Assembly (NCBI GenBank): GCA_947167835.1 | Contig: CAMVJO010000001.1 | Coordinates: 1-59,258 of the forward strand | Origin: an uncultured Prevotellaceae bacterium | GTDB taxonomy: Bacteria > Bacteroidota > Bacteroidia > Bacteroidales > Bacteroidaceae | Length of the DNA stretch: 59,258 nucleotides | Direction of reading: 5' to 3' | Part shown: positions 2,045 to 27,280 of the stretch, in pieces | Layout: each line of letters starts with the position of its first letter | How positions within the stretch are numbered: the stretch's first letter is position 1 | The notes under the pieces: generated by a model | The model's input: only the letters and a program-made list of their open reading frames with translations | The model's database searches: none | What the model was told of the DNA's origin: nothing | Position numbers and translations under genes: made by a program

Positions 2045-2170
2045 CGTAAAAAGAAATAAACTTGCTTTGCTATTATGAACCGAAGCTGAAAAACTTCCTG
2101 TAGTACAGGCAAAACAAAAGAAATCAACATATAACAAACTTTATTCACAACTCACAAAAATTAAAAAATT

Positions 2171-4339: not shown

Positions 4340-4348
4340 TTGACATTG

Positions 4349-4463: not shown

Positions 4464-4585
4464 ATTAAAACAAAAAACCGACTGAGTCTTTCATAAAAGG
4501 CGGTGTCTTCCGCAAACGTACACGTATAATAAAAATAAATAAGGAGTGTGCGGCAATATGATTCGTAATCCGAAAAAACTGAAGC

Positions 4586-5659: not shown

Positions 5660-5781
5660 GATTCCTCTGATTATTCTGGGATATAAGGATTTTCTATGTC
5701 CATAGATTTTTCCAAATGTTCCGGTTATTCGAGAGTAAACCTATGGAAATCCCAAATAAGCAGGAAGTAGAAGATATTTCT

Positions 5782-6675: not shown

Positions 6676-6709
6676 GGAGTGTAGCACCGAGGGGAGTATT
6701 CTTAGGAAC

Positions 6710-8434: not shown

Positions 8435-8473
8435 CCCGAAGAAAGCGAAAAACGGAGAGGAAGAATATATAAT

Positions 8474-9714: not shown

Positions 9715-10812
9715 ATGAATATCAGGCAATATAACATATTACACCTCATAATCGGTTGGCTGCTGCCATTCGTTATGATTTGCTGCTTATCAGGTTGCTC
9801 GGAAGACGAACCTATTGAGCAGAGAGGGGGAGATGTGTTGAAGGTCGTGACATATTCTTCACGTTTTGCCGAGGTATCAGGCGTTTCCAAGGTGCGCAGC
9901 GTTACTGTTCCCGAGGATTTTGTGGCTTTCACTACGCTGAATCCTTCTGCCGAGGAGACACATCCGTCTATGACCTTGTTCCTGGCACAGAATGAGCAGC
10001 AATCAGCTTATAACTACGTTTATGAAGGCGAAGGTCTGTGGGCAGGAAATTCAAAGGTGCGGGAAGAAGATTATTACCTCTATGGTTTCTATCCTTCAGC
10101 TGCAGCAAACACTTCGGATGTCGATCCTGTTTCTTCGGACTACGCCAATGGTGCTGTGTTACATTTGACGGATGTTCAGCCCCTCAGCCTTTACGACCTT
10201 TGTGTTACAGTGGGTGTAAAAGGAGTGGAGAGTAAATCCGAAGATGTGACCGTAACCGTGGGAAATTACACCTATACAGGAAAAGAAAAAGGCAAGAATT
10301 TTGTCTATTTGCTCTTTGACCATCTTTATGGCGCCTATCAATTCCGCATGAAGGTAGATACGGAATATGATAAGTTACGTAAAATCAAGTTGAAAAGCAT
10401 GAAAATTACTACGAGCGCTGCTAAGAAATGCAACCTCGATGTGACGCTGCAATATACCGACAAACCCATAGCAGAAGTGGCGACAGATATGGATTTAAGT
10501 ATCGGACAGTCCCAGATACTGTACACCAATGATGCAGAAGGTAAGCAACTCGGTACCGATCTTGAGGATATAGGAAAAATGGTGTACCTGATACCGAGCA
10601 TTAAGAACGACCTGACTTTGGTTTGCGACTATGATGTGTATGATCGTAAGGGAACGCTTGTCAGAAGAGGCGCCCATGCTGAGAATAAACTCAACAAACT
10701 TCCCATTATTCGCCGTGGCGAGAAGAAAATAGTCAATATCACAATCAATCCGTCCTATCTGCTTCAACTTTCCGATGATGAACTGGACAATCCGTCCATG
10801 ATAATAGAATAA
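9715..10812 (+). CDS. Fimbrillin/minor pilin-like lipoprotein
   Basis: 365 aa; lipobox LSGC; 'YYLYGFYP', 'LLFDHLY' and 'RKIKLK' are fimbrillin-like; stop codon ends 1 nt before the start of the giant gene. Confidence 0.6.
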   Translation: MNIRQYNILHLIIGWLLPFVMICCLSGCSEDEPIEQRGGDVLKVVTYSSRFAEVSGVSKVRSVTVPEDFVAFTTLNPSAEETHPSMTLFLAQNEQQSAYNYVYEGEGLWAGNSKVREEDYYLYGFYPSAAANTSDVDPVSSDYANGAVLHLTDVQPLSLYDLCVTVGVKGVESKSEDVTVTVGNYTYTGKEKGKNFVYLLFDHLYGAYQFRMKVDTEYDKLRKIKLKSMKITTSAAKKCNLDVTLQYTDKPIAEVATDMDLSIGQSQILYTNDAEGKQLGTDLEDIGKMVYLIPSIKNDLTLVCDYDVYDRKGTLVRRGAHAENKLNKLPIIRRGEKKIVNITINPSYLLQLSDDELDNPSMIIE

Positions 10813-10813
10813 A

Positions 10814-13800
10814 ATGAAAGGAATAAATACAATAAGTACCGCTCGTTTGCTCCAAGGCATGAAATATGTTTTGGTGCTCTGTCTTATTGTATTTGTTTTG
10901 CCCATACATAGTCAGGAAGAGCACGTTATAGAAATCAAAGGTAACGTATTTGGCGGCGCACGTATGGCAGATGTGAAATCTACTCACGTTACCGTTTACG
11001 GAGGTAAGGTATATAATGTGTATGGTGGCAACGATATTACCGGAAAGGTGCAGGAAGGTTCGCGACTGGACATCTATAGCAGTATTATCGAGGATGTATT
11101 TGGCGGTGGCAACGGTTCTTATGTCTATACAGACGTGGCAGCCAATAAAGAAGTCCCGAAATATCAGGATTACTACTATGAACCAGGAGAAGACAGCTAT
11201 GAATCGCTCAACGCCTTCCGACCGAATCTTGCTAAGACTTATGTTCACGTAGCCGGAACGGAAGAAAATCCCACTTTCATCGGTGGATCCATATATTGCG
11301 GAGGAAACAGTTGTACTTTGCGTGCTGGATCAGATGATCCCCGCGTGACAACTCATCTTCAAATTGGTTCGTATGTGATTGCCGACTCGGTATTCTTCGG
11401 TAATAACGGAGCAAATATGATTACTGCCGACTTCATGGAGCAATATGCCGATGATGCCGTTAGTAGTCTGGACTTAACAGACAGTTTGAACTTTGCAAAA
11501 TATATGCAAGGCGCAGAAATGTCTGTTCGCCCGTCATTAGGTTTCGATGAAGGGTATGAAGAATATTCTACCAAGATAGGTTCTTTCTATTTGGGAGGAA
11601 ACGTGGGAAGTTTGTCGGTGGCTGGTATGTATAGTGTCACACTTGACGAGCCTATAGTCATATATAACAAATTAGTGGGCGGATGTAACGATGCGAATGT
11701 CCCCAAGGGAACTTACAATGCCTTCTATCAGGGCGGTGTCATCAGCGAAACCAGACCGGTAAAGATAAAATTTAATATTGCAGGTGTCAAATTAGAACCG
11801 CATAAACTGACTTATGATCAGGGAACTCATACATTCTCTTTAGAAGAGTGGAGAAAAGACGAAGCAGGTCTGCTTGTCGGTGCAAATATCTATGGTGGAT
11901 GTTTCAAGAGTGGCTATATCAATGGCGGTGTTGAGATAAATATTAAAGATGATGCCATATCAAATCGTGTTTTTCCTGCTTGCGGCGTGCCTTTGTCTGA
12001 CATGCAGCAAGCTCCCTTAGTCAGCGCTTTAAGTGTCTATGGCGGAGGATATGGTTCAAACACGGAAATTTGGGGTGATGTAGTCATCAATATTACGGAA
12101 AACGCTGGAATACTGAATGTCTATGGCGGAGGTGAACAGGGTGTCGTAGGGAAAATGGAATATGACACCAATGGTAATCATACCGGCAGGGTTTTGCAGG
12201 CTTATAACACGACAGTGAATTTAGATGCCAACCTCTTGGACGATAATAAGTTGAATGCGTCCAGATTATACGCCGGAGGTTTTGAAGGTGTCGTCACAGG
12301 AAATACTACCCTGAACTTAAATCAAGGTCGTATATACAGAGGATTCGGAGGCTCCTGCAATGCAGATATTCTAGGCGCGACAACTACTATTATCGGGCAG
12401 AGCAGTCGTCCGTATGTGACTGGAAATGTTTATGGAGGCAACGACTTCGGAGGACAAATCCAAGGAACCCTGAAACATCACCTCAATGATGAAAATTTGC
12501 AGTATCAGGATATACGTTCCAACACTTATGTGGAATATCTGAGCGGACATATAGACGGAAATATCTTTGGCGGTCCTTGCGGTGACTACGATTATTCCGG
12601 ATATGTTGGAAAATACAGCAGCAAGCCCACACTTCTCACTGCTTTGGTCAAAGGTGACTGCGATTATGCTCCAAATACTTTTGTTAATATCGCTTCAACT
12701 TCTACAAGTCCTGAAGATGTCGTGACGAATATCTTCGGTGCTGGGCAGGGTAAGTCAGGTAAAATGGGCGCTGCCGACATCAATACAAGTTATGTCCTGC
12801 TTCACGCCGCCGATGCCTCGGTAAGAGAAAATGATCTGGCCACTAATATTTATGGTGCTGGAGACTGTTCCCTTACTCACGACGCTTTGGTTGATGCCTA
12901 CTCCGTTGTTACAAAAAGAATCTTCGGCGGATGTCAAGGTTCCGTATATACCGATGTTTTCAACGCTGATGGTAGCAGTAAAGCCGGCATAGATGCCAAT
13001 TTGTCGTACATGGGAGAGACTTCTACGGTGAATCTGTGGACCGGCATGGACAAAAAATCTACTGATGTGTATGGCGCGGGAGCCTATTCGGGAACAAAAC
13101 ACAGTGTCGTAAATCTTTATGGCGGTGAAGCCAATAATATTTATGGTGCCTCCCTTGACCAAGGCGTTACCTATCTGGCACAAGTGAATGTCCCCGATAC
13201 TTCTACGGCTAAAGTCAATGCGATCTTCGGTGGTGCCAAGGGAAACAGCAATACCTACAATTGTGACGCTTATGTCAGCTACATCAATTTTAATAGTCCC
13301 AAGGCCACTGTAGAACAAGCCATTTATGGAGGAAATCACGACAACAGATTTACTCGTGATGCCTATATACATATCAATCAGCCTGTTCAAAACAAAAAGG
13401 GCAAACTTGTAAATGTGTTTGGTGCAGGATATGGTAGTAATACTGTAGCAGGACGTTCGCATATCTTCATGGAAAAAGGCGCGAAAGCCCTCAATGTCTA
13501 TGGTGGAGGCCGAGACGGTTCGGTATTGATAGCACCTTCTTTGCAACACTTCATAAATACCTATGATGTCAGCGGCAGTGAAGATATTTACAAGGAACGT
13601 ACCGATCCGAAAGGCTTCCTTGATTTTGCCGAGGAAAAGGCAGATTTGTTTACATCCCTTGGCATCGTGAATAATTATCGCACATCAACCGATCCAAGTA
13701 CGAGTGTTCATCTTTTAGACAGTTCCTACGTTGAGGAAAATGTCTATGGCGGTGGTTTAGGTTCGACGGCCACTATAGCAGGTACGACCGGTGTGATGCT

Positions 13801-16800
13801 TGAGGGCGGAACCGTTGCAGGAGACCTGTATGGCGGTGGAAAAGGCGGACACGTGATGGATACTTACAGACTTAGAAATTTCGTAGCCGGTACATACGTG
13901 AAATTGATTGGCGGTACTGCTCGAAATGTCTATGGCGGTGGACTGGATGGCAATGTAGGTATGAAAGGAACCGTCGGACAGGATTATTTTGCCCGCACCC
14001 ATGTTGTTATGGGTGTGAAAGACCAGCAGAATTCGACATATAAGAATGGTGATGCGACGGTAGAACGTAGTATCTATGGTGGAGGACAGCGTGGTGCCGT
14101 GATAGGTATGACAAACCTGTATATTCACAATGGTCATGTGGGCTATAAATATTATGCCAAGGAGGGTGAAGAGGCTACATACCATGAAAATATAGAACTC
14201 GTAGCAGGAAGTGGTGATGAGCTGCTGAAAGAAAACGGTAATGCCTTTGGAGGTGGATATGGTGAGGGCGCTACGGTCGATACCACCAACGTAATTTTGT
14301 ATGGTGGTGTTATTCGTAACAGTCTCTACGGAGGTGGTGAAATTGCCTCGGTGGGCCGTGCCGAAATGGAGGAGAAAGGCTATCTGAATTCCGAGCGAAG
14401 CATTATAAGTATTGAGCGTCCAGGTGCTACAAACGTGACAATGTATCGTGGCTTGGTATGTCGTGATGTATTCGGCGGAGGTCGTGGTTATAGTTACGAC
14501 CTTACGGGTAACGAAGTCATTGGTGACAGTATTTATACTGACGGTTACGTATTCGGACACACAGGTGTGAATATTTATGGCGGTGTTGTCGGTACGGAGG
14601 ACAATGTAGATGACGGATATGGCAACGTATTCGGCGGTGGTAACATAGGTTATGTTTATAGTATCGAAGGTTCTAAATCCGAGGAGGACGGTTATTATTA
14701 TGATTATCGTGGAAATCTGACTGAAGACTGCACCGTTATCATCTCGCCCTACGCTCAGGTAAAAGATTCCGATGGTATTTCTATCACTAACGGTGGAACT
14801 TACGCTTATGGCGAATATGTTCCGACCGAAGACCTCAATAAACTTAAAAACAAAGCAGCTGACAGGGCACAGTGGGACAAACTGGATGTTTCGGGCATCT
14901 TAATCCGAAATGCTGTCTTTGCTGGAGGAAACGTTTCCACTGGTAGTGATAAGGTGTTTGCCAATGTAAAGACGGTGTTCGGCAATGTGACTGCTACGCT
15001 CTACGATGTTTATCATCGCGACCTGATTACTGTCGGAACAGAGCACATTGGCGGTTTGTATGGTGACGGTAACCTGACTTTTGTCGATGGTTATCGCGAA
15101 TTGAACATCACTAATTATGGAACCGACTACTATGGCATGCACGATAGAATATCTCTTGATGAATACAGCAGACTTACCGACCGCGAACGCGCCTATTTCA
15201 GCATAGAATACGAATGTGCGCAACGTGTAAAGATAGATGGTAAATGGTATGAGCAGGGAAACCGCATCACAGAGGATGTTTATTCTGAGTTCCCCGAGGA
15301 ATATCAGACCGAAACCTATTGGACTAAAGCAGGTTTCTGCTCTATCTATGCGGGTCGCCTGCTTAATACATTACAGCGCGCCGACTTCGTGGGAGTATTT
15401 GGCAGTCGAATGGTGTTGCAGGGAGCTACCGACCGTGTGACCGATGAAGTCGATTATACCCAATACACCATAAACCGTGTGGGCGAGATATCACTCAATA
15501 AGCAGCTTTCGCAAGCAGGAGATACGGAGGAAGAAAGTAAGTCTCACGGCTGCTATTTCGGTATCTATAATATTGTGAATTATCTCGGCCATCTAACCAG
15601 CGATGTGAAGTTCGGAGACGTGCGTTATACCGACAATAGCGATGCAAGTTACCGAGGAGATAATTATGGAACGAAGACTTATCTGGAATGGAAACGCGAA
15701 AACGTGACCAATCGTAAACGTAATAATGGTAGCAGTCATAATAAAGTTGCTTTGGCCTCGGGTGTGTATCTTGAACTGACGACAGAAGCAAGTACCAAGA
15801 CCAATAAAGTTTACGGAGACATCACGGGTATTATTGAACTCGACCTTATCAATGTGATGACCGGATTAGGTGGTGGTTATGTCTATGCACGTAATGAACA
15901 CGGTGAACCTACCTATCACCCGGAGCGCACGAATGTGATTCTATCCAGATATAACACCAATGCTGTAACGTATAAGAAATACAGTTACAACAGTAATTAT
16001 CAGAATTACCAGACTTCCGGAAACTTTGTACACAATACCAAGCGAATCATCGACGACTGTTATCCTAATAATGGTTCTTATGATGACGGATATGTGGCTT
16101 CTCCGGCTCACTATTGGTACGTAAAGGGTGATATCTACGTTTACGACCAGACGATATCGGCATATACGGGTGCTTCTACGGCATATTCTAAGGAAATCAA
16201 CATACCTTTGAACATTACTGCGGCATCTCATGGTAAGATGAAGCTGTTAAATGTACAGACCAGCAAGTTTGCTTATTACCAAGACCCGAAAACGCTTGAG
16301 CCTATCGGAGAATTGGGTGTGATAGCCGGTAATAAGACCTATTACCGCGGAGATCCCATTACGTATTGGGATTATATGCAGCTTACGGATAACGAACAGA
16401 AAATGTTCCTCGACAGTGTCTATGTCAGTGTGGCGGCTTGTTCTACGTTATCTTCGGGCAATCCGGCAAGTACATCATATCCTTCGGGTACTGTTATGAC
16501 GGTAAGTGACTATAAGTCTTTTGCTGCCAAAAATGCTACCCTGCATCATACAGAACGTGACGAGGATGTGCCTGTCAGCGACGTCTTCCGTTTGTCAAAC
16601 AACATGAGTTTTGACAATGGCTACGTGCTTTCGCTCTTTATGAACAATCCAAAGGACTGGGATCAGTGGTATTCTATCATTAAGGGCGATAGCGAAACAG
16701 ATAGGAAGAGCACCCGTCAATATAATGCGTTGAGTAAAGATGATAAGGAACTCTATTTGGAAGGTCCTTCCTTTGCAACCGACGAATCTGGCGTGTACGG

Positions 16801-19800
16801 ACAGCGTCTGTACGGCATCGGAGATATCATTACGGAAGAAGTGTATAAGAACTACAATGATATTCCCGAAGCCTGGAAACCTACGGAAAATCAAGCCACG
16901 ATGGAGCGTGCTTATGTGGCCAAGTCTGAGGTTATTTACCAGTATTTAGGACATGAGTCGCATGTATATCCTGGTGTAGCCATATCTTCTACCGAGTATA
17001 ACGCTTTAAGCACGGATGCCAAGGCATGTTTTGCAGAGGCATGGACGTGTACCAGAACCCTTGATGCTGGAAACAATCAGTTTGTCTTCTATACCGACTT
17101 GGTAGATGCCGACAGTATTGCGAAACTCAAGCAAATGTATGCCGCATTCTACGGAGTATCGGCTGATGCTGCGTCGAAAGTCGTTGATAGCCACTTCTCT
17201 AAGGCATATTACTGCTTAGCTGCCGGAGAATATGGCGGACGTTATTACAGTACGGGCGAGAATTACAGTTCTTTGGAGTCGTGGTGTGCACTTTCTGCTG
17301 CCGACAGAGAGCATTTCTCTTTCAACTATGATGCTTTCAACCTCTTAGTTGATCCGCAATATCAGGGTAATACCGCATTATATGGCAGTCCGTATGATTT
17401 AACCAAGCCTGTAGATTATACGGCTAAGTATACGGGAAATACAGATCTGCAATACCACGACAAGGCTGGCACTTTGCACACTATTGCTGTGGGCAGTGCT
17501 GATTTGGAACGCGAAGACTACGAGTTGATTCCTAACGAAGAAGCCTATTATACACCGGTATTGGTAGATCCTACCGATGCTGAGGGTGAAGATTACTACA
17601 TTGTCAAAACTGACTTCGTTCGCGGAGATGTTCCTTATGCTGCAGGCCAGATTGTCAGCGAGACGATGTATAATTCGTTGGATTCTGATCAAAAGAACAA
17701 GGTGACATATGTTCGTTTCGTCAATACAACAGAGGAAAGGCAGCTCTATTATTATTGTCACGAGACATACGAAGTGGGTGCCTTGGGAGAAGGTATGCCT
17801 TTCGAGGATAGAGACGGAGTTGCATACGAGGTAGGCGATACTGTCGAAGCGGGAGTTGTCATTACCTCCGATGAATACAATGATCATATACCCAATTTCC
17901 AGAAGTCATTCCTCATCAAGGGAAAAGAACCTACCGAAACAGCCACGCTCTACGTATCTCGTGAGAGCGATATCTACGATTTGTCTTCCGATAGGATAAT
18001 TACCGTCATCTATCAGTATTCTTATAACGAAAGTGACGAATCGGGCACACACATTGAGCCTATCAATGAGTTGCACGTTGTCAATATTCGTGTACAGTTC
18101 GAGAGTGGTGTGCCTTCTATCGGACAATTACTGCCGCCGTCCACCGTTCTTCCGGGTTCTACCGTAGGTTTGAAACAGCCGGAGACATCTAAGGGCGCAT
18201 ACGAGATACTTGGTGGCGGTTGGGAGATATTTACGAATAAGTCTGACGGCGAAAATCACCGCAATGGCGTACCTTATATCAATAATGCCACACCTATGTA
18301 TTGGTATCAAGACGGCTATTATGTGGCATACTATACCAAGACATATTTAGGTAAGACATACAGCAACGCAGTCCAGTTCTCTGTGGCCAATTACCATGAC
18401 CTTGATGCGGTTATGAAGGATAAAGACCACCACTTATACATAGATCATCCCGATGTGAAGCGCAACAGCAAGATTTACATCGACAATCGCGACTGCACAT
18501 CCGACGCTACCAAGAGTAAACTCGACTTATTGTATGATTTCCATCAGCTTAGTTTAATCGAAGCTCCGGCTGATACCAACGATACCTACCGCATACCCGA
18601 TGGTATCTTTGAGGGACATGCCGTTCTCAATCAGGAAATGGTACATTCCTGCGAGAATTTGGATTTCTTCCTCGGCAGCGATGTGTCGCCTAAGAAATAT
18701 ACCACATGGAATCCCATAGGTGCTACTTCTTGCTTCGAGGGTGTAGTCCATGGTGACGGACATACGGTGAGCGGACTCACACATTCGTTGTTTGCCAACC
18801 TATGTGGCGATGTCTATAACCTGGGTGTTACGGGAAGTTTCACGGGTGCTGGTATTGCCGATGCAGGTACTGGTTACGTTGAGAACTGTTGGATAAAAAC
18901 AACCGGAGAACCCGACGGAAGTCTCTATGCCGTATTCGGAAATCCCCAGCGTGATAGCGGAACGCAGATAGTAAACTGCTATTATCCCTCTACTAATAAT
19001 TATAAGAAGACGACTTGCGCCCGAGGTAACGCCACAGAAAAATCTCTCTACGCCTTCAATAACGGTGAAGTGGCCTATAACCTCAACGGCTTCTATCTGA
19101 AGAAACGTTATAAGGACCATGTGGGAGGCAATCCCGAACTCAGCGGAAATATGTCATACGTTACCGACCGTTATGACAACATTGACTTTATTTATGCCGA
19201 CGGAAAGATTCCTGTCACCACCGATATTCGCTTCAGCACTGATGATGGCTTGTATCACCCCTTATGGCCGGATGATTATCTCTTCTTTGGTCAGAGTTTG
19301 ACTTATGGTTACGATGAAATAGCCTATCAAAATACTCCGTCTTGCATCAATAAGACCGAGAATGGTCAGTTGGCGCACGAGGAAGAGTCGAACCGAGTTT
19401 ATCGTGCTCCGGCCTATTTCCGCAGTAGTGCGTTAGACGTGGCATATTTCAACTCCAATGCTGTCTTTGCCATGACAACGAGCGATAAGAGTGCCGACAT
19501 CTATCCGCGAATGATGACAGCCATCGACTTTACCGGCTATGGCGATAATTCATATACGCGCGAAGATGAGGCAGGCTTCTTCTATCGTCCGCTACTTGAC
19601 GACGACGGATTGATGCGTTACCGCAAATTCGGTATCACGCCCAACTTGTTGGTATATATCCCCGAGGTATCTGTAAATCAAAAGACGAATCAGGTTCTTT
19701 CCAAGTACTTCCTTACAGAACCTGTCTATGATACGAATTCCCACGACGATGCCGGTTCCACAAATGTGGCTACTATCGATGCGTCTGTCATACGTGGCCA

Positions 19801-20968
19801 TGCCGTATTCAGAAATGAAGATGCTTTCGAGGGACGTACGGACCACTTCCTCGTGGATAAGAACGACTTCAATGCGCCTATCTCTTATTCCTTCGTAAAC
19901 AACAAGCGAATGTGGTATCAACGCAAGCCCGATACCTACGTTGATATCAATAAGGGCTGGGAAAGCATCAGCATTCCGTTCACGGCTGAAATGGTTGCCA
20001 CCAACGAAAAAGGCGAAATCACCCATTTCTATGGCGATAGCAAGGTCGGACACGAATACTGGCTACGTACGTATCGCGATATCTCGGCTGTGGATGAGGA
20101 AGACAAGGCTACGGCACTCTTCACCCGTCCCGATGCAATGGCTGGCTACAATAAGGAATATGCCAACACATTCCTTTGGGATAAGTACTATTCTTATAAT
20201 AGTTATGACGATGCCAATGGCGACGACTATCCCGATAACGACAAGGACAAGGCATATTACAGATACTCCACGCCACGTGTCTATGAAGACTATCCGCTCT
20301 TGCAGAATGCAGTGCCGTATATCATAGGCTTCCCGGGAGCAAGATATTATGAGTTCGACCTTAGCGGTACGTTCGAGGCACAGAATACGGCCAGTCCTGC
20401 ACCTACCAAACTGTCGCGACAGACTATCTCGTTCGTATCTCAGCCTAACATCGAAATTCAGGTGAGTGACACCGAATTGGCCGACGGCAAGATTACCCAT
20501 AACGGCTATACCTTCTGGCCTAATTACCTTAACAATGTAGTCAAGGCAGACGGTTATGTTTTGAACGCCGATGGCAATTCGTATGTCAAGACTACTGAGG
20601 AACAAACGGAGAAAGAACGCACGGTACTGCCGTTCCGTTCGTACTTTGCTGCCTCGGGTGCCGCAGATAATGGTGTGAAACGTGCCCGTCGCATCGAGTT
20701 CTCTAACGATATCTCCTCTCTCTTCGGCGATGACGAGGACAATGGCGATTCAGGTCTGTACATACGTGCTTTGTCACACCGTGTATTGGTAACTTCCACG
20801 CTTCGCCACGAAACGCGTGTCCAGATACGTAATGTAGCCGGTCAGGTAACATCCGAATTCAGCATTGCACCGGGCGAAACCGTCGAGCAACCTATTTACC
20901 ACGCCGGAGTATATGTCGTTAATTCGACAGACGGAACGGTTCAGGGTCGCAAACTGCTCGTCAAGTAA
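10814..20968 (+). CDS. Giant secreted Gly-repeat (beta-helix-like) surface protein/adhesin with putative T9SS C-terminal domain
   Basis: 3384-aa ORF; signal peptide; dozens of [VI][YF]GG[GAC] repeats in the N-terminal ~1400 aa; GLUG-like region 'FEGVVHGDGHTVSGL..LF.NLCGDVYNLGV'; CTD-like end 'IRNVAGQ...GVYVVN...GRKLLVK'. Confidence 0.7.
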   Translation: MKGINTISTARLLQGMKYVLVLCLIVFVLPIHSQEEHVIEIKGNVFGGARMADVKSTHVTVYGGKVYNVYGGNDITGKVQEGSRLDIYSSIIEDVFGGGNGSYVYTDVAANKEVPKYQDYYYEPGEDSYESLNAFRPNLAKTYVHVAGTEENPTFIGGSIYCGGNSCTLRAGSDDPRVTTHLQIGSYVIADSVFFGNNGANMITADFMEQYADDAVSSLDLTDSLNFAKYMQGAEMSVRPSLGFDEGYEEYSTKIGSFYLGGNVGSLSVAGMYSVTLDEPIVIYNKLVGGCNDANVPKGTYNAFYQGGVISETRPVKIKFNIAGVKLEPHKLTYDQGTHTFSLEEWRKDEAGLLVGANIYGGCFKSGYINGGVEINIKDDAISNRVFPACGVPLSDMQQAPLVSALSVYGGGYGSNTEIWGDVVINITENAGILNVYGGGEQGVVGKMEYDTNGNHTGRVLQAYNTTVNLDANLLDDNKLNASRLYAGGFEGVVTGNTTLNLNQGRIYRGFGGSCNADILGATTTIIGQSSRPYVTGNVYGGNDFGGQIQGTLKHHLNDENLQYQDIRSNTYVEYLSGHIDGNIFGGPCGDYDYSGYVGKYSSKPTLLTALVKGDCDYAPNTFVNIASTSTSPEDVVTNIFGAGQGKSGKMGAADINTSYVLLHAADASVRENDLATNIYGAGDCSLTHDALVDAYSVVTKRIFGGCQGSVYTDVFNADGSSKAGIDANLSYMGETSTVNLWTGMDKKSTDVYGAGAYSGTKHSVVNLYGGEANNIYGASLDQGVTYLAQVNVPDTSTAKVNAIFGGAKGNSNTYNCDAYVSYINFNSPKATVEQAIYGGNHDNRFTRDAYIHINQPVQNKKGKLVNVFGAGYGSNTVAGRSHIFMEKGAKALNVYGGGRDGSVLIAPSLQHFINTYDVSGSEDIYKERTDPKGFLDFAEEKADLFTSLGIVNNYRTSTDPSTSVHLLDSSYVEENVYGGGLGSTATIAGTTGVMLEGGTVAGDLYGGGKGGHVMDTYRLRNFVAGTYVKLIGGTARNVYGGGLDGNVGMKGTVGQDYFARTHVVMGVKDQQNSTYKNGDATVERSIYGGGQRGAVIGMTNLYIHNGHVGYKYYAKEGEEATYHENIELVAGSGDELLKENGNAFGGGYGEGATVDTTNVILYGGVIRNSLYGGGEIASVGRAEMEEKGYLNSERSIISIERPGATNVTMYRGLVCRDVFGGGRGYSYDLTGNEVIGDSIYTDGYVFGHTGVNIYGGVVGTEDNVDDGYGNVFGGGNIGYVYSIEGSKSEEDGYYYDYRGNLTEDCTVIISPYAQVKDSDGISITNGGTYAYGEYVPTEDLNKLKNKAADRAQWDKLDVSGILIRNAVFAGGNVSTGSDKVFANVKTVFGNVTATLYDVYHRDLITVGTEHIGGLYGDGNLTFVDGYRELNITNYGTDYYGMHDRISLDEYSRLTDRERAYFSIEYECAQRVKIDGKWYEQGNRITEDVYSEFPEEYQTETYWTKAGFCSIYAGRLLNTLQRADFVGVFGSRMVLQGATDRVTDEVDYTQYTINRVGEISLNKQLSQAGDTEEESKSHGCYFGIYNIVNYLGHLTSDVKFGDVRYTDNSDASYRGDNYGTKTYLEWKRENVTNRKRNNGSSHNKVALASGVYLELTTEASTKTNKVYGDITGIIELDLINVMTGLGGGYVYARNEHGEPTYHPERTNVILSRYNTNAVTYKKYSYNSNYQNYQTSGNFVHNTKRIIDDCYPNNGSYDDGYVASPAHYWYVKGDIYVYDQTISAYTGASTAYSKEINIPLNITAASHGKMKLLNVQTSKFAYYQDPKTLEPIGELGVIAGNKTYYRGDPITYWDYMQLTDNEQKMFLDSVYVSVAACSTLSSGNPASTSYPSGTVMTVSDYKSFAAKNATLHHTERDEDVPVSDVFRLSNNMSFDNGYVLSLFMNNPKDWDQWYSIIKGDSETDRKSTRQYNALSKDDKELYLEGPSFATDESGVYGQRLYGIGDIITEEVYKNYNDIPEAWKPTENQATMERAYVAKSEVIYQYLGHESHVYPGVAISSTEYNALSTDAKACFAEAWTCTRTLDAGNNQFVFYTDLVDADSIAKLKQMYAAFYGVSADAASKVVDSHFSKAYYCLAAGEYGGRYYSTGENYSSLESWCALSAADREHFSFNYDAFNLLVDPQYQGNTALYGSPYDLTKPVDYTAKYTGNTDLQYHDKAGTLHTIAVGSADLEREDYELIPNEEAYYTPVLVDPTDAEGEDYYIVKTDFVRGDVPYAAGQIVSETMYNSLDSDQKNKVTYVRFVNTTEERQLYYYCHETYEVGALGEGMPFEDRDGVAYEVGDTVEAGVVITSDEYNDHIPNFQKSFLIKGKEPTETATLYVSRESDIYDLSSDRIITVIYQYSYNESDESGTHIEPINELHVVNIRVQFESGVPSIGQLLPPSTVLPGSTVGLKQPETSKGAYEILGGGWEIFTNKSDGENHRNGVPYINNATPMYWYQDGYYVAYYTKTYLGKTYSNAVQFSVANYHDLDAVMKDKDHHLYIDHPDVKRNSKIYIDNRDCTSDATKSKLDLLYDFHQLSLIEAPADTNDTYRIPDGIFEGHAVLNQEMVHSCENLDFFLGSDVSPKKYTTWNPIGATSCFEGVVHGDGHTVSGLTHSLFANLCGDVYNLGVTGSFTGAGIADAGTGYVENCWIKTTGEPDGSLYAVFGNPQRDSGTQIVNCYYPSTNNYKKTTCARGNATEKSLYAFNNGEVAYNLNGFYLKKRYKDHVGGNPELSGNMSYVTDRYDNIDFIYADGKIPVTTDIRFSTDDGLYHPLWPDDYLFFGQSLTYGYDEIAYQNTPSCINKTENGQLAHEEESNRVYRAPAYFRSSALDVAYFNSNAVFAMTTSDKSADIYPRMMTAIDFTGYGDNSYTREDEAGFFYRPLLDDDGLMRYRKFGITPNLLVYIPEVSVNQKTNQVLSKYFLTEPVYDTNSHDDAGSTNVATIDASVIRGHAVFRNEDAFEGRTDHFLVDKNDFNAPISYSFVNNKRMWYQRKPDTYVDINKGWESISIPFTAEMVATNEKGEITHFYGDSKVGHEYWLRTYRDISAVDEEDKATALFTRPDAMAGYNKEYANTFLWDKYYSYNSYDDANGDDYPDNDKDKAYYRYSTPRVYEDYPLLQNAVPYIIGFPGARYYEFDLSGTFEAQNTASPAPTKLSRQTISFVSQPNIEIQVSDTELADGKITHNGYTFWPNYLNNVVKADGYVLNADGNSYVKTTEEQTEKERTVLPFRSYFAASGAADNGVKRARRIEFSNDISSLFGDDEDNGDSGLYIRALSHRVLVTSTLRHETRVQIRNVAGQVTSEFSIAPGETVEQPIYHAGVYVVNSTDGTVQGRKLLVK

Positions 20969-21042
20969 GGAATCTTTGTCGGTATATTCGGGAGAAACGT
21001 GAATATAGCCGTAATCATGCCGTCGGAAGGCTGCAAAAAAGA

Positions 21043-21126
21043 TTCTCATCGCGTAGAGAAAGTTTTCTCATGGCGATGATAAAGTTTTCTCAACGCGAAG
21101 AGAAAATATTCTCAACGCGAAGAGAA
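21043..21126. repeat. Tandem array of four 22-bp palindromic units (TTCTCnnCGCGnnGAGAA)
   Basis: Units start at 21043, 21065, 21087 and 21109; the same family occurs at 47447-47530. Confidence 0.85.
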
Positions 21127-21271
21127 TGGAAAAAGGCGGGGAAAGACGCAACTTTCTTTGAGATTGTAACGTACTTCCCGAAATATAAAACCAAATACAA
21201 GAACCACCTAAATATTGCAGGGTAGGGCGGAAGCAAATCCTCAGTCCCCCGAATAAATAACCATCATTTAA

Positions 21272-21457
21272 GGGTTGTTCTAAAAATTAGGCTGTTTTGA
21301 GTTTTCGAAGATTTTTGAGTGATTTTGTATTTAATTTCGCAGAAGCATAGTAACCTATGGTTCAAGGAATAAAAGACAAAAGCGCCAAAAAGATTGAAAA
21401 ATCATACAGACTTAAATGGACTTCCCAATATTTATAAACTAATTTTTAGAACAACCC
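21272..21457. mobile_element. MITE-like element, short form (186 bp)
   Basis: TIR GGGTTGTTCTAAAAATTAG / CTAATTTTTAGAACAACCC; TTAA on both flanks; homologous to the four other copies. Confidence 0.8.
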
Positions 21458-21478
21458 TTAAGAACCATTTGTTCAGCA

Positions 21479-24400
21479 ATGAAATATTTATTTTCGTCAT
21501 ATTTTCACCGTATATGTCGCTCTTTGTTCGTGACACTGCTGTTGCTATGTGCCACCAGCGCATCTTTTGCGCAGATAGCAGAGGGATTATACTATATAGC
21601 CAGTTATAACTCTTATAACAAGACGAATCATGCGGCTACGTTCTATATATGCCCCGCAGATATCTCGTGGGCGTCTGGTCAGCCTTACCTAACTACGAGT
21701 AAGAACAATCAAAGCGATCTTTTTGAGGTGATAAAAGCAGATGACTACTATTATATCAAGCATGTCTCCTCGGGAAAATATCTTACTATCAACGGACCAA
21801 CTTTTGCTTCGGGAAATGAGCACCGTCGCCGCGTGCACCTTGAAGATGTTGCGGAACTCGGTGAGGATAACCTGTTCAGTATTATAGTTGGCGGCTCACA
21901 TAAAACAAATGGCACCTTCTATAATATCACTCACAAGAGCCTTGTTGTGAATGGCCACAAGTATCTGAACGTTACCGGCGGTAACCAGACATATAACGAC
22001 GGTGGTAAATCCGGTTATTCTGGTATTATAGGTTTGTATAACAGCGCTACCGACGGAGGTTCCCGATGGTATTTTGAAGCGCCGCCCGCTACGCTTGATT
22101 GTGCCAATCCTTACATCAGTTTGGACAGCGACGACAAGGTGAAAATCACCTGTACCACTCCCAGTGCCGTGATTTACTATACGCTTGACGGCTCTAATCC
22201 CACAAACTCTGCCACACGTCAGGTGTATTCCGCACCTTTTGCTATGGGAGCAGGACAAACTACGGTCAAAGCCGTGGCTACAAGATCTGGCTACACCGAT
22301 TCCGAAGTCATTCGCCTGGATGCTGTCAAACAAGTGGTAAGCAACAGTTCCGAAATCACCAATATGTATGGTTGCTACTACCTTGACGAAGGTTTTGTGC
22401 TAAGCAGTTCCATAGGAAGCTCAAATAATCCTTTCTGTGGCCTCATTGACGGCGGATTCAACGAGATTTCCCTCGATGAGCCTTTAGTGGATTATGCCAA
22501 AGGCGCCACTATTCGTAACATCAGGGTAGAAGATGCTTCCATTGACGTAACTGGCAATGCAGGAGCGATATGTAGTCATGCACAGGGCGTCACTCGCATT
22601 TACAACTGCGGCATTCTCTCGGGAACAGTCAAAGGTACGAAATATACCGGCGGCATTGTGGGTGAATTGAAGGACGCTGCCCGCGTCATCAACTGCTTTA
22701 GTTTTGCCGACATCACGGGTGGCACGTATGTTGGAGGCATTGTGGGTTACAATACCTTCCCTTCTACTGCGGATAACCTTAAAACGATGGTGATGAACTG
22801 CATGTTTTATGGCGATATCACAGATGGTACATCTAAGGCCCCGATTTACAATGGAGAACTGATAACTAACGTAGGAAATCAGAAAGGACTCAACAACTAT
22901 AACTATTTTACGATTGATGCTAACTACGCAAAATCGGGCGATATCCAGAAATACAACACCGCACTCGGTGCAGAAAAACGTTTCCTGGTGCGTTTCGAGC
23001 AATACCGCTATCTTCTCAACGGAAATCGCAACCTTGCTGCCTATTATGCCACCGACGACAGCAAAAACCGTGAGGCTATGGCCAAATGGGTGCTGGATAA
23101 ATCCATAAAGCAGTATCCTATCCTGAAACCGCAGGCCAAATATCCTTCCATTATCAACTATGACGAAACGTCCCTGCCTTCTCAGGGCACTTTGACCGTC
23201 AATATCCAGCAGGGTTCGGGATATCCTACCGGCGCATCCATAGTTGTTTCTTCAAAGAACCTGACTATTACCGACCAAGACCCCGAAAACTTCAATTTCA
23301 ACTACCATAAAGTGCAGTTACCCTACTATAATGACGTAGGAACTCATAACTATACGAAAAATAAGGTGGTGACGGGTTGGAAAATCGTGAACATAGTTGG
23401 CGGTACCAAGGGAGACTTTGTAAAAAAAGACACAGTAGGCGGCTACGACTTCACGAATCGCAAATGTACCGACAAGGATCTTTACAGTGTGAGCGAACGC
23501 GTGTTTGCACAGGGCGGGTATTTTGATGTTCCCGACGGAGTAACAAGCATTACTATCCAGCCGTATTGGGCAAAGTGCGTATATCTGAGCGATCCCACGT
23601 ACGATGTAACTTATTGGGAGAACGGAGCGAACTGGGCTCCCGTGGAAGTGGCAGAATTGGGCACGCAATATAGTAATGGTACCGAGGTGGATATCAACGG
23701 CAGTATGCAAAAAGTTTATACCACGCTGCCGAATGCGCTTACTGCACTGGCCGCCAGCACCAAGTCCAAGGTTTTTGACAATGCCGTCGTGCTGGTGGGA
23801 AATTTCCACCGGTTCTGTGGTGCTAACTCGCTGACAAAAGGTTATGATGGCGAGCCTTTCACACTTTTGTCCATAGATTTGGATAAAGACAACGAGCCGG
23901 ATTACAGTATGTTCATCCAACAGACGAACCGCCAGCTGATAACTCCCATTCGCTTTGACTTTATCAATATGATTAACCTTGGTATGGCGCACAAGGTCGA
24001 AGGTAGTATTCGTGTGCCCAACCTTGGTATTGTGCAGGCCACATCTTGGTTTGAAATTACCAACACTTGCCTCATACAGTTCGGACAGTTTGAATACGAT
24101 CACAGCACTCGTCAAAAAGCGCCCATGATACTTCATGGAGGAGTCTTCGATCAGTTTATTTCAAACTACAATTCCGCACCGAAAAACCTGACAGAATATC
24201 TTTATCTTGGCGAAAACGTATGGTTCAAGATGTTTAACAACGGACGTCACGCCAATACTGCTCAGAAATACTTCACAAAACATATTCCCATCAGCGTTTC
24301 GGGCGGTGATTACGAGAGTTTCTATCTTTCGGGCATGTTTAATCAGTTTATTGACACACAACCCGACGACGCAGAGTGCTATATCAGCGGCGGACGCTTC

Positions 24401-27001
24401 GGCGAAGTTGCGGGAGGCGGCATGGAACAAATTGATGGCAACGTAGAATGGAAAATCAACCACGCGGATATAAAATCCTTCTACGGTGGCGGCGTGAATG
24501 CCGCAAAGCCTATTAAGGGAAACATCACTGTTACGATAGAAGGCAGTAATGTAGGAACATATTGCGGAGGTCCGAAATTTGGCGACATGACTACGGGCAA
24601 GAAGGTCAAGACTACGGCCAGCGATTGCGAATTCAATAAATTCTTTGGCGCAGGTTATGGCGGAACTTCCCTGAACCGTGTGGCAAAGGTGGACTCTACA
24701 CAACATACAAACTACCCTTTCAATGCGTATGTCACCCAATACTATGATCGTAAGTACAATTCCGGAAGTGCGGGCGTAGCTGTTGGGTATGAATACGAAC
24801 ATATCGTGTTTACCGGCTTCACTAATGACAATACGGTGGGACGTTTTTACGTGAACTACGCCTCTCTTTCTCTGGCTACCGTTGATAGTGTGGAATCTGT
24901 CCTCACGGGTTGCACCATTCACGACAATTTCTATGGTGGCGGCAACCTTGGTAAGGTGACAAGCGGTGCTAATTCAAAACTCTTCGGATGTACGGTTGAA
25001 GGTGACGTATATGGTGCAGGATTCTCGGCAGACATTCCTACTTGTGACGTCATGCCTATTCAGGGAATGACACCTGAACCATATTATAACGGACTTGCCG
25101 GTGTGTTTATCACGGGTGAGATGCCTCAGACCGTAGCTTACAAATGGCATCAGGTGGCAAGTGTGAGCGCAGGCAATGAATTTGACGAAGTAAACAAATA
25201 TATTTATACCACAGCCGACCTTAATACTTTGGGGCAGGTAGGTGGCGAGATTTATCTCACCGTCGATAATGGAACGCGCGTATATGGTAGCGTATTCGGC
25301 GGAGGAAACCAGTCGGAAGCCACAGGTAATGCCAACGTGACGGTAGCCGGTAGCGGAACTGTCGTCACTAATAGCGTTTTCGGCGGCGGTAATGTGGCTG
25401 TGCTCGGAGGAAATGCCGAAGTTCACCTGTCAGGCGGCACGGTAAACCGCAATCTTTACGGTGGTGGCAATGTAGCCGAAGTTGAGGGCACGACATCGGT
25501 GGAAATCACGGGTGGAGAAGTCATTAACGACGTATATGGCGGCGGTAACGAGGCGAATGTGCGTAGTAGCGTGACGGTAACGGCCAATGGCGGTACGGTA
25601 CGCGGTGCTCTCTACGGGGGAGGCGCACTTGCCAACACGAATACGGTGGACGGTGCTACGGTAGTGGATTTGCTTGGCGGAAAGGTGAACGATGTCTATG
25701 GCGGAGGATTGGGTAATGCCGAGACTGCTGCCCTTGTGGGCGGAAATGTGACGGTTACCCTCGACGGAAGCGAAGTTACGGGGCAGGTATTCGGATGTAA
25801 CAACGTAAACGGTTCACCGCAGAAGCACGTAAAAGTTCATGTGAAGCGCACGGCGAGATATAATAACGATGGTACGCTTCGCAGCAAACCCGAAAAGGAA
25901 AAAGATATCTACGAGGTGGCAGCCGTTTACGGCGGTGGCAATAAGGCGCCCTTTGTTCCTATTTCCGTAAACGAATATACCGAGGTTCTTGTCGAAGGTT
26001 GCGATGAAACGAGCGTAGGTAGTGTTTACGGCGGCGGCAATGCGGCATCGACACCTGCCACAGATGTTTTGATAAGTGGCTGCTATGAGATAGATTATGT
26101 GTTCGGCGGCGGAAATGGTGCGGGCGAAGGCAATCCAGGTGCCAACGTAGGATATGCTGCCGACCTGGACGGAAATCCTAAGACGCCTGGAGCGTCCTAT
26201 GGCTTGGGTATAGCCAGAACTACTATCAGTGGTGGAAGAATTCACCACGTGTTCGGTGGCAGTAATACGCGTGGAAACATCCGTGAGACGGCAGTATCGA
26301 TGCTTGACGAGGTTAACGAAGAATGTCCTATTGACTTAGGCGAGTTTTTCGGTGCGGGCAACGAGGCTTATATGGATGGCGATGCAAGAATCTACATGGG
26401 ATGCGTTTCGTTTATCAACGAACTCTATGGCGGCTCCAAGAATGCGGATATTGCCAAGGACATTGAATTGCATATCACCAACGGAACGTTTAATAAGATC
26501 TTCGGAGGAAATAAAAAGGGCGGTGCCATCAATGGTTCTATCACGATTTATATAGAGGAGTGGGGATGCCAGCCCATTCGCATCGGCGAACTGTATGCTG
26601 GTGGCAACGAAGCGCCCTATACCACGCCGGCGGGTAAGAATCACCCCAGAATATTTGTCGTTTCGGCCACGGAAATAGGAACTATCTTCGGTGGCGGCTA
26701 TGGTGAGTCGGCCGAAGTGGTGGGTAATCCCTATATCAACGTCAATATGGTCAAGGGAATACTCAATAAGATTGACGATCAGGAGGGTGTCGATGTGCAA
26801 AATAATAATGTTGAGCAGGAAGTAGGTACGATAGGCACTATTTTCGGAGGCGGCAACAGGGCTGTCGTTCGCGGCAATACGAAAATAGAAATCGGTACCG
26901 AAGGAAAATCTGCCAAGATCACGGGTAACGTCTATGGCGGCGGCAATCATGCCGAAGTAACCGGAACTACCGACGTAATCATCGGTAAACCAAAGGAATA
27001 G
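21479..27001 (+). CDS. Large secreted protein: beta-trefoil-like + chitobiase/hexosaminidase C-terminal (Fn3-like) + GLUG-like + C-terminal Gly-repeat beta-helix
   Basis: 1840 aa; signal peptide (ASFA|Q); 'ITCTTPSAVIYYTLDGSNPT...YSAPF...VKAVA' is CHB_HEX_C-like; 'YTGGIVG'/'YVGGIVG' are GLUG-like; many VYGGG repeats run to the very C-terminus; no T9SS-type CTD seen. Confidence 0.7.
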   Translation: MKYLFSSYFHRICRSLFVTLLLLCATSASFAQIAEGLYYIASYNSYNKTNHAATFYICPADISWASGQPYLTTSKNNQSDLFEVIKADDYYYIKHVSSGKYLTINGPTFASGNEHRRRVHLEDVAELGEDNLFSIIVGGSHKTNGTFYNITHKSLVVNGHKYLNVTGGNQTYNDGGKSGYSGIIGLYNSATDGGSRWYFEAPPATLDCANPYISLDSDDKVKITCTTPSAVIYYTLDGSNPTNSATRQVYSAPFAMGAGQTTVKAVATRSGYTDSEVIRLDAVKQVVSNSSEITNMYGCYYLDEGFVLSSSIGSSNNPFCGLIDGGFNEISLDEPLVDYAKGATIRNIRVEDASIDVTGNAGAICSHAQGVTRIYNCGILSGTVKGTKYTGGIVGELKDAARVINCFSFADITGGTYVGGIVGYNTFPSTADNLKTMVMNCMFYGDITDGTSKAPIYNGELITNVGNQKGLNNYNYFTIDANYAKSGDIQKYNTALGAEKRFLVRFEQYRYLLNGNRNLAAYYATDDSKNREAMAKWVLDKSIKQYPILKPQAKYPSIINYDETSLPSQGTLTVNIQQGSGYPTGASIVVSSKNLTITDQDPENFNFNYHKVQLPYYNDVGTHNYTKNKVVTGWKIVNIVGGTKGDFVKKDTVGGYDFTNRKCTDKDLYSVSERVFAQGGYFDVPDGVTSITIQPYWAKCVYLSDPTYDVTYWENGANWAPVEVAELGTQYSNGTEVDINGSMQKVYTTLPNALTALAASTKSKVFDNAVVLVGNFHRFCGANSLTKGYDGEPFTLLSIDLDKDNEPDYSMFIQQTNRQLITPIRFDFINMINLGMAHKVEGSIRVPNLGIVQATSWFEITNTCLIQFGQFEYDHSTRQKAPMILHGGVFDQFISNYNSAPKNLTEYLYLGENVWFKMFNNGRHANTAQKYFTKHIPISVSGGDYESFYLSGMFNQFIDTQPDDAECYISGGRFGEVAGGGMEQIDGNVEWKINHADIKSFYGGGVNAAKPIKGNITVTIEGSNVGTYCGGPKFGDMTTGKKVKTTASDCEFNKFFGAGYGGTSLNRVAKVDSTQHTNYPFNAYVTQYYDRKYNSGSAGVAVGYEYEHIVFTGFTNDNTVGRFYVNYASLSLATVDSVESVLTGCTIHDNFYGGGNLGKVTSGANSKLFGCTVEGDVYGAGFSADIPTCDVMPIQGMTPEPYYNGLAGVFITGEMPQTVAYKWHQVASVSAGNEFDEVNKYIYTTADLNTLGQVGGEIYLTVDNGTRVYGSVFGGGNQSEATGNANVTVAGSGTVVTNSVFGGGNVAVLGGNAEVHLSGGTVNRNLYGGGNVAEVEGTTSVEITGGEVINDVYGGGNEANVRSSVTVTANGGTVRGALYGGGALANTNTVDGATVVDLLGGKVNDVYGGGLGNAETAALVGGNVTVTLDGSEVTGQVFGCNNVNGSPQKHVKVHVKRTARYNNDGTLRSKPEKEKDIYEVAAVYGGGNKAPFVPISVNEYTEVLVEGCDETSVGSVYGGGNAASTPATDVLISGCYEIDYVFGGGNGAGEGNPGANVGYAADLDGNPKTPGASYGLGIARTTISGGRIHHVFGGSNTRGNIRETAVSMLDEVNEECPIDLGEFFGAGNEAYMDGDARIYMGCVSFINELYGGSKNADIAKDIELHITNGTFNKIFGGNKKGGAINGSITIYIEEWGCQPIRIGELYAGGNEAPYTTPAGKNHPRIFVVSATEIGTIFGGGYGESAEVVGNPYINVNMVKGILNKIDDQEGVDVQNNNVEQEVGTIGTIFGGGNRAVVRGNTKIEIGTEGKSAKITGNVYGGGNHAEVTGTTDVIIGKPKE

Positions 27002-27008
27002 TGCTACA

Positions 27009-27280
27009 GGGTTGTTCTAAAAATTAGGCTGTTTTGATTTGCTTACACTCTCTATACGTTTGTTCCTGCAACCCGCAGAGCTTCACCCTACGGGGCAGAC
27101 AACAAACAGAGTGTGCGCGAAGAATTCAAAGATTTTTGAGTGATTTTGTTTTTAATGCCGCAGAAGCATAGCAAGCTATGGTTCAAGGAATTAAAGACAA
27201 TGGCGCCAAAAAGATTGAAAAAGCATACAGACCAAAAAAAAACTTCACAAAATTTTAAAACCTAATTTTTAGAACTACCC
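27009..27280. mobile_element. MITE-like element, long form (272 bp) with nested structured insert
   Basis: TIR GGGTTGTTCTAAAAATTAGG / CCTAATTTTTAGAACTACCC; near-identical to 31036..31306. Confidence 0.8.

What the first reader, a model, noticed from the sequence alone, without database searches (positions are those of the whole stretch)
10814..27001. Mirror-image giant pair: possibly one beta-helix split over two polypeptides, only one with an export/anchor signal
Seen: the 3384-aa protein starts, right after its signal peptide, with the repeat ('IEIKGNVFGGARMADV') and ends in a T9SS-like CTD. The 1840-aa protein ends abruptly with the same repeat ('AKITGNVYGGGNHAEVTGTTDVIIGKPKE') and has no CTD. 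Domain orders are mirrored: repeats-GLUG-CTD versus trefoil/Fn3-GLUG-repeats. Inference: the uncapped C-terminal rung of one may stack on the uncapped N-terminal rung of the other, making a >5000-aa rod. The CTD-less partner would then be exported or retained via its partner and supply an exchangeable ligand-binding tip.
Basis: partly seen in the sequence, partly recalled or inferred. Interest (0 to 1): 0.75.

Follow-up and report, generated by a model that had tools for sequence, protein, structure and literature searches.

The report
Stackable base-extender-tip surface rod
Two giant neighbouring genes of a gut Bacteroidales bacterium encode proteins whose matching repeat ends are predicted to stack into one rod, so the partner without an outer-membrane export tag likely reaches the cell surface by riding on the tagged one, which would be an undescribed modular way to build surface adhesins.

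Summary
Protein A (3384 aa) begins, right after its signal peptide, with a GNVYGGG repeat and ends in a T9SS sorting domain. Protein B (1840 aa) ends on the same repeat and has no such domain. Both ends are family traits: 109 of 120 B relatives found by the core alone end on the repeat, and 78 of 89 near-complete A relatives start on it, in matching phase. All 28 family genomes with B also carry A; 38 of 39 with A carry a B-type gene. AlphaFold models show uncapped beta-helices. A complex prediction stacks B's last rung in register on A's first (0.89; best control 0.00; no same-repeat decoy). Relatives add a third class, extenders with both ends. In a second base family, bases starting on a rung have a rung-ended neighbour (2 of 2) and tip-fused bases do not (0 of 32). 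No fusion of A itself with B was found. The shared helix covers about 2,200 residues, not 5,000. The genes follow type V pilin genes. Binding, export route and ligand are untested.

The parts
10814..20968 (+). Protein A, 'base', 3384 aa: signal peptide (about 1-33), repeat beta-helix (41 to about 1390), about 1,900 aa without Pfam hits, T9SS type A sorting domain
10922..11005 (+). First rung of A (residues 37-64), predicted interface with B
18611..19063 (+). GLUG/M26_N-like segment of A (about 2600-2750; bounds approximate); no Pfam hit, matched by custom profiles
20792..20965 (+). T9SS type A C-terminal sorting domain of A (TIGR04183, residues 3327-3384)
21479..27001 (+). Protein B, 'tip', 1840 aa: signal peptide (about 1-31), ricin-type trefoil (86-173), CHB_HEX_C/Fn3 (216-278), GLUG-type core, repeat beta-helix (about 990-1836), no sorting domain
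26891..26995 (+). Last rung of B (residues 1805-1839), predicted interface with A
9715..10812 (+). 365-aa lipoprotein ending one base before A's start; relatives sit directly upstream of A in 31 fetched loci and share a conserved C-terminal motif; weak match to fimbrial protein BF1861; candidate pilus-to-A adaptor (inferred)
   Evidence: (3sy6, E 0.012)
404..9658 (+). Type V pilus-like cluster: DUF3575/TPR protein, 722-aa and 574-aa lipoprotein-like ORFs without Pfam hits, Mfa2-family, DUF5106/thioredoxin, FimA/FimD-like
21272..21457 (.). 186-bp miniature inverted-repeat element between A and B; one of at least 161 complete copies in the genome; incidental
27009..27280 (.). 272-bp form of the same element behind B's stop; site empty in one other sample; incidental

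Best explanation
A and B are likely two subunits of one surface rod: B's open last beta-helix rung is predicted to stack in register on A's open first rung, so that A, which carries a type IX sorting domain, would hold B's lectin-like domains away from the cell. Steps: (1) both chains enter the periplasm by their signal peptides (inferred from sequence); (2) their repeat regions fold as beta-helices without end caps (predicted); (3) B's C-terminal rung docks on A's N-terminal rung (predicted; supported by conserved phase and by split and fused relatives); (4) A leaves through the T9SS CTD-first and B most likely follows as part of the complex (inferred, about 55%; the alternative is separate export and docking outside); (5) A's C-terminal part is then fixed to A-LPS or, like Mfa5, to the tip of the type V pilus encoded upstream (inferred; not decided). 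In relatives, extender subunits with both ends would lengthen the rod and several B-type genes would give alternative tips.
For: Ends: 109 of 120 long B relatives found with the core alone, and 117 of 120 found with a query that included the C-terminus, end within 45 residues of the last rung. 78 of 89 near-complete A relatives start with a rung directly after the signal peptide. Phase: B's conservation stops at offset +19 from the motif and A's mature chain starts at -6, which coincide for a 25-26 period. Pairing: 28 of 28 B-core genomes have A; 38 of 39 A genomes have a B-type gene; 32 of 38 loci with a complete A end have one downstream, 18 within 100 bases; 3 of 3 further loci in the window's genus are paired. 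Models: B 981-1840 pLDDT 91, ending in a strand; A 34-933 pLDDT 82, starting in strands. Complex: score 0.89, best of 3 controls 0.00; the mark was reached by 116 of 157 solved complexes and 2 of 215 mismatched pairs (rough here, own alignments); runs agree in at least 96% of contacts, partner pLDDT at least 85; A N44/V45/F46 pair with B N1817/V1818/Y1819, and the native ends were used rather than the two artificial cut ends. Split and whole forms: the G254 tip and extender map end to end on single chain P0219 (gap +1) and overlap by one rung on four others. Seven complete extenders have both ends. Second base family: 2 of 2 rung-start bases have a rung-ended gene directly upstream, 0 of 32 tip-fused bases do. 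The two long B-core proteins with their own CTD-like tail lack the terminal rung. The host has SprA, GldM/PorM, PorV and PorP over cut-off.
Against: No experiment. The complex controls were unrelated proteins; no decoy with the same repeat was run, and halves of a split repeat protein tend to pass by likeness, so the score shows compatibility, not specificity or affinity. No fusion of the A family itself with B in 240 + 150 relatives (the searches reach only 5,000 aa on the B side). Homology of the second base family to A is weak: diagonal profile matches E 0.002-0.09, only the GLUG-type segment significant. B's last rung is no more conserved than its best inner rungs (0.79 against 0.77-0.79). 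In G195, G046 and G275 unrelated genes follow A and the partner lies on another contig; G286 (80% complete) has none found. Two B relatives carry an extra domain after the last rung (P0136, P0232), as does one extender (G146). Only 1 of 8 tested split pairs mapped cleanly; repeats blur the rest. I found no paper showing T9SS export of a CTD-less passenger.
Confidence: 0.75

Rival explanations
1. B's last rung is its own outer-membrane sorting signal, read by a dedicated shuttle such as the upstream DUF3575 barrel or PorP; A and B are exported separately and need not touch.
For: The end position is strictly kept, as a signal would be. A DUF3575 protein heads the window's cluster and several related loci; the genome has a PorP/SprF protein. 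B cores with their own CTD lack the rung.
Against: It does not explain why bases start on an in-phase rung, why extenders carry both ends, or why only rung-start bases of the second family have rung-ended neighbours. B hits no sorting-domain model. It could still hold as the export step combined with stacking.
Confidence: 0.1
2. The pair is a relic of gene fission and repeat recombination: breaks fall at rung boundaries, the ends stay compatible by descent, and the chains work apart.
For: Rung numbers vary widely (11-79 in 240 B relatives); split and whole forms coexist; compatible ends alone would also give a high complex score.
Against: Every downstream piece examined carries its own signal-peptide-like start placed just before a rung; the arrangement is kept across eight or more genera and in a second family; gene order is usually base then tip, the reverse of a simple fission.
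Confidence: 0.08
3. A and B stack, but B stays periplasmic or the rod is released: A is a pilus-assembly or secreted factor rather than the base of a displayed adhesin.
For: No route across the outer membrane is shown for B; B-type chains reach 8,365 aa, a large load for one translocon.
Against: B's N-terminal domains are lectin-like and variable; in the second family equivalent tips are fused to the CTD-bearing chain; T9SS exports folded proteins as large as SprB, 6,497 aa (PMC9251779, passage).
Confidence: 0.07

Closest known systems
Curli CsgA/CsgB (PMC10192328, passages read)
   Same: Beta-solenoid subunits with open ends stack head to tail by beta-sheet augmentation, with a minor subunit tying the fibre to the cell. 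Pontibacter CsgA is among the fold matches (8c50, Z 15.6, rmsd 9.5, 352 aligned).
   Different: No curlin repeat hit, CsgG not found in this 89.6% complete genome; subunits are 700-8,400 aa multidomain chains of three classes with a T9SS tail on the base only.
Mfa5 of Porphyromonas gingivalis Mfa1 fimbriae (PMC7835359 and PMC5954841, passages read)
   Same: A large T9SS cargo encoded behind type V pilin genes and located at the pilus tip.
   Different: Mfa5 is one chain with vWF and Ig-like domains; A has a repeat beta-helix, no vWF hit, an open N-terminal rung and a CTD-less partner. Whether A joins the pilus is untested.
T9SS type A cargo (PMC10994853, passages read)
   Same: Signal peptide plus C-terminal sorting domain on A; substrates leave CTD-first through SprA with PorV.
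   Different: B and the extenders have no CTD; a CTD-less control fusion is used there as a negative control, and no passenger subunit appears in the passages read.
Beta-helical passengers and adhesins (pertactin 2iou, UpaB 6bea, EtpA 8vba, ice-binding protein 3p4g)
   Same: Long parallel beta-helix as a stalk; best Z 19.4, rmsd 3.6, 270 aligned for 3p4g.
   Different: Identity 8-17%; Foldseek gives no match at E<=0.001; these are single chains (capped ends recalled, not tested); no autotransporter barrel hit in A or B.
Single-chain CTD-bearing repeat proteins of rumen F082/Limimorpha Bacteroidales (P0154 family; uncharacterised)
   Same: Tip domains, the same rungs, a long stalk, a GLUG-type segment and a CTD in the order B then A; three carry the B core itself.
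   Different: Mostly one chain; stalk only weakly similar to A; no pilin-like cluster was noticed in the flanks (read by eye).

Membership tests
T9SS type A cargo (protein A) | C-terminal sorting domain | tested here: met
   TIGR04183 23.5 bits on the tail, cut-off 23 (20.5 on the whole protein); 17 of 25 family members hit
T9SS type A cargo (protein A) | Host encodes the T9SS | tested here: met
   SprA, GldM, PorV, PorP over cut-off; PorU partial at a contig end
T9SS type A cargo (protein A) | CTD cleavage and surface attachment | not testable with these tools
   needs proteomics
T9SS cargo (protein B) | C-terminal sorting domain | tested here: not met
   no NCBIfam or Pfam sorting-domain hit; chain ends on a repeat rung
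Curli | Curlin repeats | tested here: not met
   no curlin family in the Pfam scan of A and B at E<=0.01
Curli | CsgG secretion pore in the genome | tested here: inconclusive
   not found in an 89.6% complete genome; control rang in 4 of 14
Curli | Head-to-tail stacking of open beta-solenoid ends (works like) | tested here: inconclusive
   predicted for B on A, score 0.89 against 0.00; not measured
Type V pilins | Lipoprotein with fimbrillin family match (A and B) | tested here: not met
   no fimbrillin hit; lipobox-like pattern in 1 of 240 B relatives
Mfa5-like pilus tip cargo | T9SS cargo gene behind type V pilin genes | tested here: met
   Mfa2 and FimA hits in the window; Mfa_like_1 among the nearest upstream genes in 14 of 16 divergent loci
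Mfa5-like pilus tip cargo | von Willebrand A domain | tested here: not met
   no Pfam hit in A
Mfa5-like pilus tip cargo | Incorporation into the pilus tip | not testable with these tools
   complex job spent on A with B; no folding jobs left for A's C-terminal part
Autotransporter / two-partner secretion | Own beta-barrel or a TpsB partner | tested here: inconclusive
   no barrel hit in A, B or the window; the ShlB search rang in no control, so it says nothing

The most novel reading that the evidence does not exclude
This is a new class of surface filament: base, extender and tip subunits polymerise by beta-helix end stacking, extenders can self-stack to set length until a tip caps the rod, only the base carries a T9SS signal, so the T9SS threads a non-covalent chain of CTD-less subunits, and the rod is mounted on the tip of a type V pilus through the conserved lipoprotein encoded just before the base.
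Probability: 0.3. Interest if true: 0.92.

Novelty: categorically new. Interest (0 to 1): 0.78.

Why it matters
The CTD is treated as the required ticket for T9SS export. A conserved family of CTD-less giants that dock on a tagged partner makes passenger export directly testable with two short fragments, and implies that CTD-based secretome predictions miss large surface proteins of gut and rumen Bacteroidales. It also offers a second natural use of beta-solenoid end stacking besides curli, here heteromeric and polar, with swappable tips and optional extenders. The parts (T9SS tail, beta-helix, sheet augmentation) are known; the assembly is not described in the searches made (open-access library only).

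Tried and rejected
Composite transposon around B: rejected; the flanking elements are two of at least 161 complete copies with their own 4-base AT-rich target repeats at most sites, and one site is empty in another sample. B truncated by the element: rejected; the same end is kept in 226 of 240 relatives. Exceptional conservation of the last rung: suggested by pooled logos but not upheld rung by rung. P0154/P0189 as true A-B fusions: profile searches with A segments missed them apart from a weak GLUG-type hit; only weak collinear matches, so they are reported as fusions with a different base. Fold and sequence searches for a close solved relative: none for B's repeat region or A's last 621 residues. 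Wider distribution: B's C-terminal part was not found in 400 genomes drawn across the order; A in 3 of 147 genomes of the genus. Expression: one RNA run holds short contigs of A and little of B, which does not show transcription. No promoter or terminator signal above chance between A and B. The 1,921-bp span between two inverted repeats on contig C5 holds ordinary-looking ORFs, not an evident transposase. The protein atlas gave no answer. Earlier findings by sequence and by place: none. No supplements were read.

Full report
Observation. Two ORFs of 3384 aa (A, 10814-20968) and 1840 aa (B, 21479-27001) lie on the + strand with the quoted ends. A repeat of the form GNVYGGG fills A 44-1367 and B 1000-1817. 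A's tail reaches the TIGR04183 cut-off when scanned alone (23.5 against 23) and B hits no sorting model. B's N-terminal part holds a ricin-type trefoil, a CHB_HEX_C/Fn3 domain and a GLUG motif. Pfam finds nothing in A; its GLUG-like stretch is seen only with custom profiles. These two are the only repeat-rich ORFs of this type in the genome. Signal peptides were assigned by eye. The organism occurs in sheep and goat gut metagenomes, where contigs cover both genes without an internal indel among the rows shown.

Context. Upstream lies a type V pilus-like cluster: DUF3575, Mfa2 and FimA/FimD-like hits. The last gene, a 365-aa lipoprotein, ends one base before A starts. The genome has SprA, GldM, PorV and PorP over cut-off and a PorU cut by a contig end. 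A short inverted-repeat element sits on both sides of B but is incidental: at least 161 complete copies exist and one sample lacks the downstream copy.

Are the ends family traits? Of 120 B relatives found with residues 280-1840, 117 end within 45 residues of the last rung; this search favours similar C-termini. Of 120 longer relatives found with the core alone, 109 do. The 14 exceptions include two with their own CTD-like tail, two with an extra domain after the rung, one with a low-complexity tail, and others that look cut or frameshifted. Of 150 A relatives found with A's middle, 89 were long enough to judge; 78 begin with a rung just after the signal peptide, and most of the 11 others look N-terminally cut. 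B's conservation runs to offset +19 from the motif and A's mature chain starts at -6; with a 25-26 period the two ends are in phase. The last rung is not more conserved than the best inner rungs; what is kept is where the chain stops.

Pairing. In 300 family genomes, 28 have the B core and 39 have A's middle; all 28 are among the 39. Of the other 11, six have an adjacent B-type gene (one cut by the contig end), four have one elsewhere and one, 80% complete, has none found. In three genomes unrelated genes follow A. 32 of 38 loci with a complete A end have a B-type gene downstream, 18 within 100 bases. Three more loci from 147 genomes of the window's genus are all paired. Kin are not independent, so I give no test. 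Fimbrillin-like genes precede A in 14 of 16 divergent loci scanned (46 of 96 collected upstream proteins were given). B's C-terminal part was not found in 400 genomes across the order.

A third class. Several loci hold a short tip ending on a rung followed by a gene with a signal peptide, a first rung, many repeats and a last rung. Seven such extenders are complete (722-3,697 aa). One more ends 118 residues after its last rung. G197 has three complete B-type genes behind one A. G219 and G740 have the order tip, extender, base. The G254 tip and extender map end to end on one single-chain protein (P0219, gap +1) and overlap by one rung on four others; G148 was suggestive and the other six of eight pairs were blurred by repeats.

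Fusions. No protein among 240 B and 150 A relatives holds both the B core and A's middle. But P0154, P0189 and an ORF in L132 join the B core and rungs to a different 2,000-residue stalk with a CTD-like tail. That stalk defines a second base family (137 hits), found in rumen F082/Limimorpha genomes. Its similarity to A is collinear but weak. It gives a natural control: of 72 loci, 34 held the stalk segment (38 dropped), with 36 bases; 2 of 2 that start on a rung have a rung-ended gene directly upstream, 0 of 32 with fused tips have such a neighbour (3 with under 2 kb of upstream flank), and 2 are open-ended.

Structure. AlphaFold2 gives B 981-1840 as a repeat beta structure ending in a strand (pLDDT 91) and A 34-933 starting in strands without a capping helix (pLDDT 82, with a poor stretch near model residues 633-714). 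Foldseek finds no solved match at E<=0.001; VIA-align lists generic beta-helices, led by 3p4g (Z 19.4, rmsd 3.6, 270 aligned) and including curli CsgA. The complex of A 34-463 with B 1470-1840 scored 0.89 (0.91, 0.89, 0.89), best of three controls 0.00; that mark was reached by 116 of 157 solved complexes and 2 of 215 mismatched pairs, counts that hold only roughly with my own alignments; the runs agree in at least 96% of contacts and the partner's pLDDT is at least 85. The interface is A 37-64 on B 1805-1839, in register. The model supports binding and does not show it. Pieces of one repeat helix tend to pass by likeness, and no same-repeat decoy was run; the only internal check is that the native ends, not the two cut ends, were joined.

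Mechanism. Best reading (0.75): tip B stacks by its last rung on base A's first rung, giving a shared helix of about 48 motif rungs (roughly 2,200 residues; about 23 nm at 4.8 A per rung, a lower-bound estimate). T9SS substrates leave CTD-first (PMC10994853, passages) and can be folded and very large (PMC9251779, passages), so B trailing A through SprA is the simplest route; separate export with docking outside remains open. A is then fixed to the surface or, like Mfa5 (PMC7835359, PMC5954841, passages), to the pilus tip; the conserved upstream lipoprotein, weakly like fimbrial protein BF1861 (E 0.012), is a candidate adaptor. Shown: sequences, ends, pairing, three classes. Predicted: folds and interface. 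Inferred: export, anchoring, ligand binding. Rivals: own export signal (0.10), fission relic (0.08), not displayed (0.07).

Comparison and novelty. It works like curli in stacking open solenoid ends (PMC10192328, passages) but fails the curlin test. A passes as T9SS cargo and sits where Mfa5 sits but lacks its domains; B fails as T9SS cargo and as pilin. Seven literature searches of the open-access library (listings only) found no description; two more served to find comparators. Subscription papers were not searched. Unchecked notes of this scan describe other CTD-less beta-helix proteins paired with T9SS carriers by a different proposed docking; they are leads, not support. Verdict: real, conserved, apparently undescribed; interest 0.78.

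Noticed in passing
window 21272-21457, 27009-27280, 31036-31306: A miniature inverted-repeat element in two lengths (186-187 and 270-272 bp) with at least 161 complete copies in a 2.25-Mb genome, mostly with 4-base AT-rich target repeats; the copy at 27009 has inverted rather than direct flanks and its site is empty in another sample; no autonomous parent element was identified.
   Followed up: partly
window 21043-21130: Four tandem 22-base repeats between A and the element; contigs from other samples differ here; a loose search gave 291 similar 22-mers genome-wide, with no chance control.
   Followed up: partly
window 39717-42250 (-): Two tandem ftsZ-like genes (401 and 433 aa) behind ftsA and ftsQ; G721 has another ftsZ-like ORF right after its B gene (read by eye).
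   Followed up: no
window 9715-10812 and relatives: Conserved C-terminal motif in the lipoprotein that precedes A (alignment A10); candidate donor strand for attaching A to the pilus.
   Followed up: partly
window 10913-11100: A lacks about 300 residues of rungs present near the N-terminus of most relatives, yet still starts on an in-phase rung.
   Followed up: partly
L032-L033 (G072:C22), L062-L063 (G258:C7), L067-L068 (G288:C3): B-type ORFs of 8,365, 7,949 and 7,894 aa with 106-127 rungs and no CTD hit; the last two end in low-complexity tails.
   Followed up: no
window 5716-6675 and related loci: A DUF5106/thioredoxin-like gene travels with the locus, here inside the pilin cluster and in several relatives directly after B; B's repeat region has conserved cysteines, so it may be a dedicated disulfide catalyst.
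   Followed up: no
G010, G173, G213, G220, G293, G165:C14: An unrelated ORF of about 380-430 aa often sits between A and B; not identified.
   Followed up: no
L073-L074 (G207:C1:110138-113614): A 1,158-aa protein with B's N-terminal tip and a CTD-like tail of its own lies between A and B.
   Followed up: no
L111, L122, L137: Second-family bases occur as tandem paralogues in F082-type genomes.
   Followed up: no
window 53188-54693 (-): GH3 auxin-responsive family acyl-amide synthetase-like gene next to a Big_5 protein and DUF3108.
   Followed up: no
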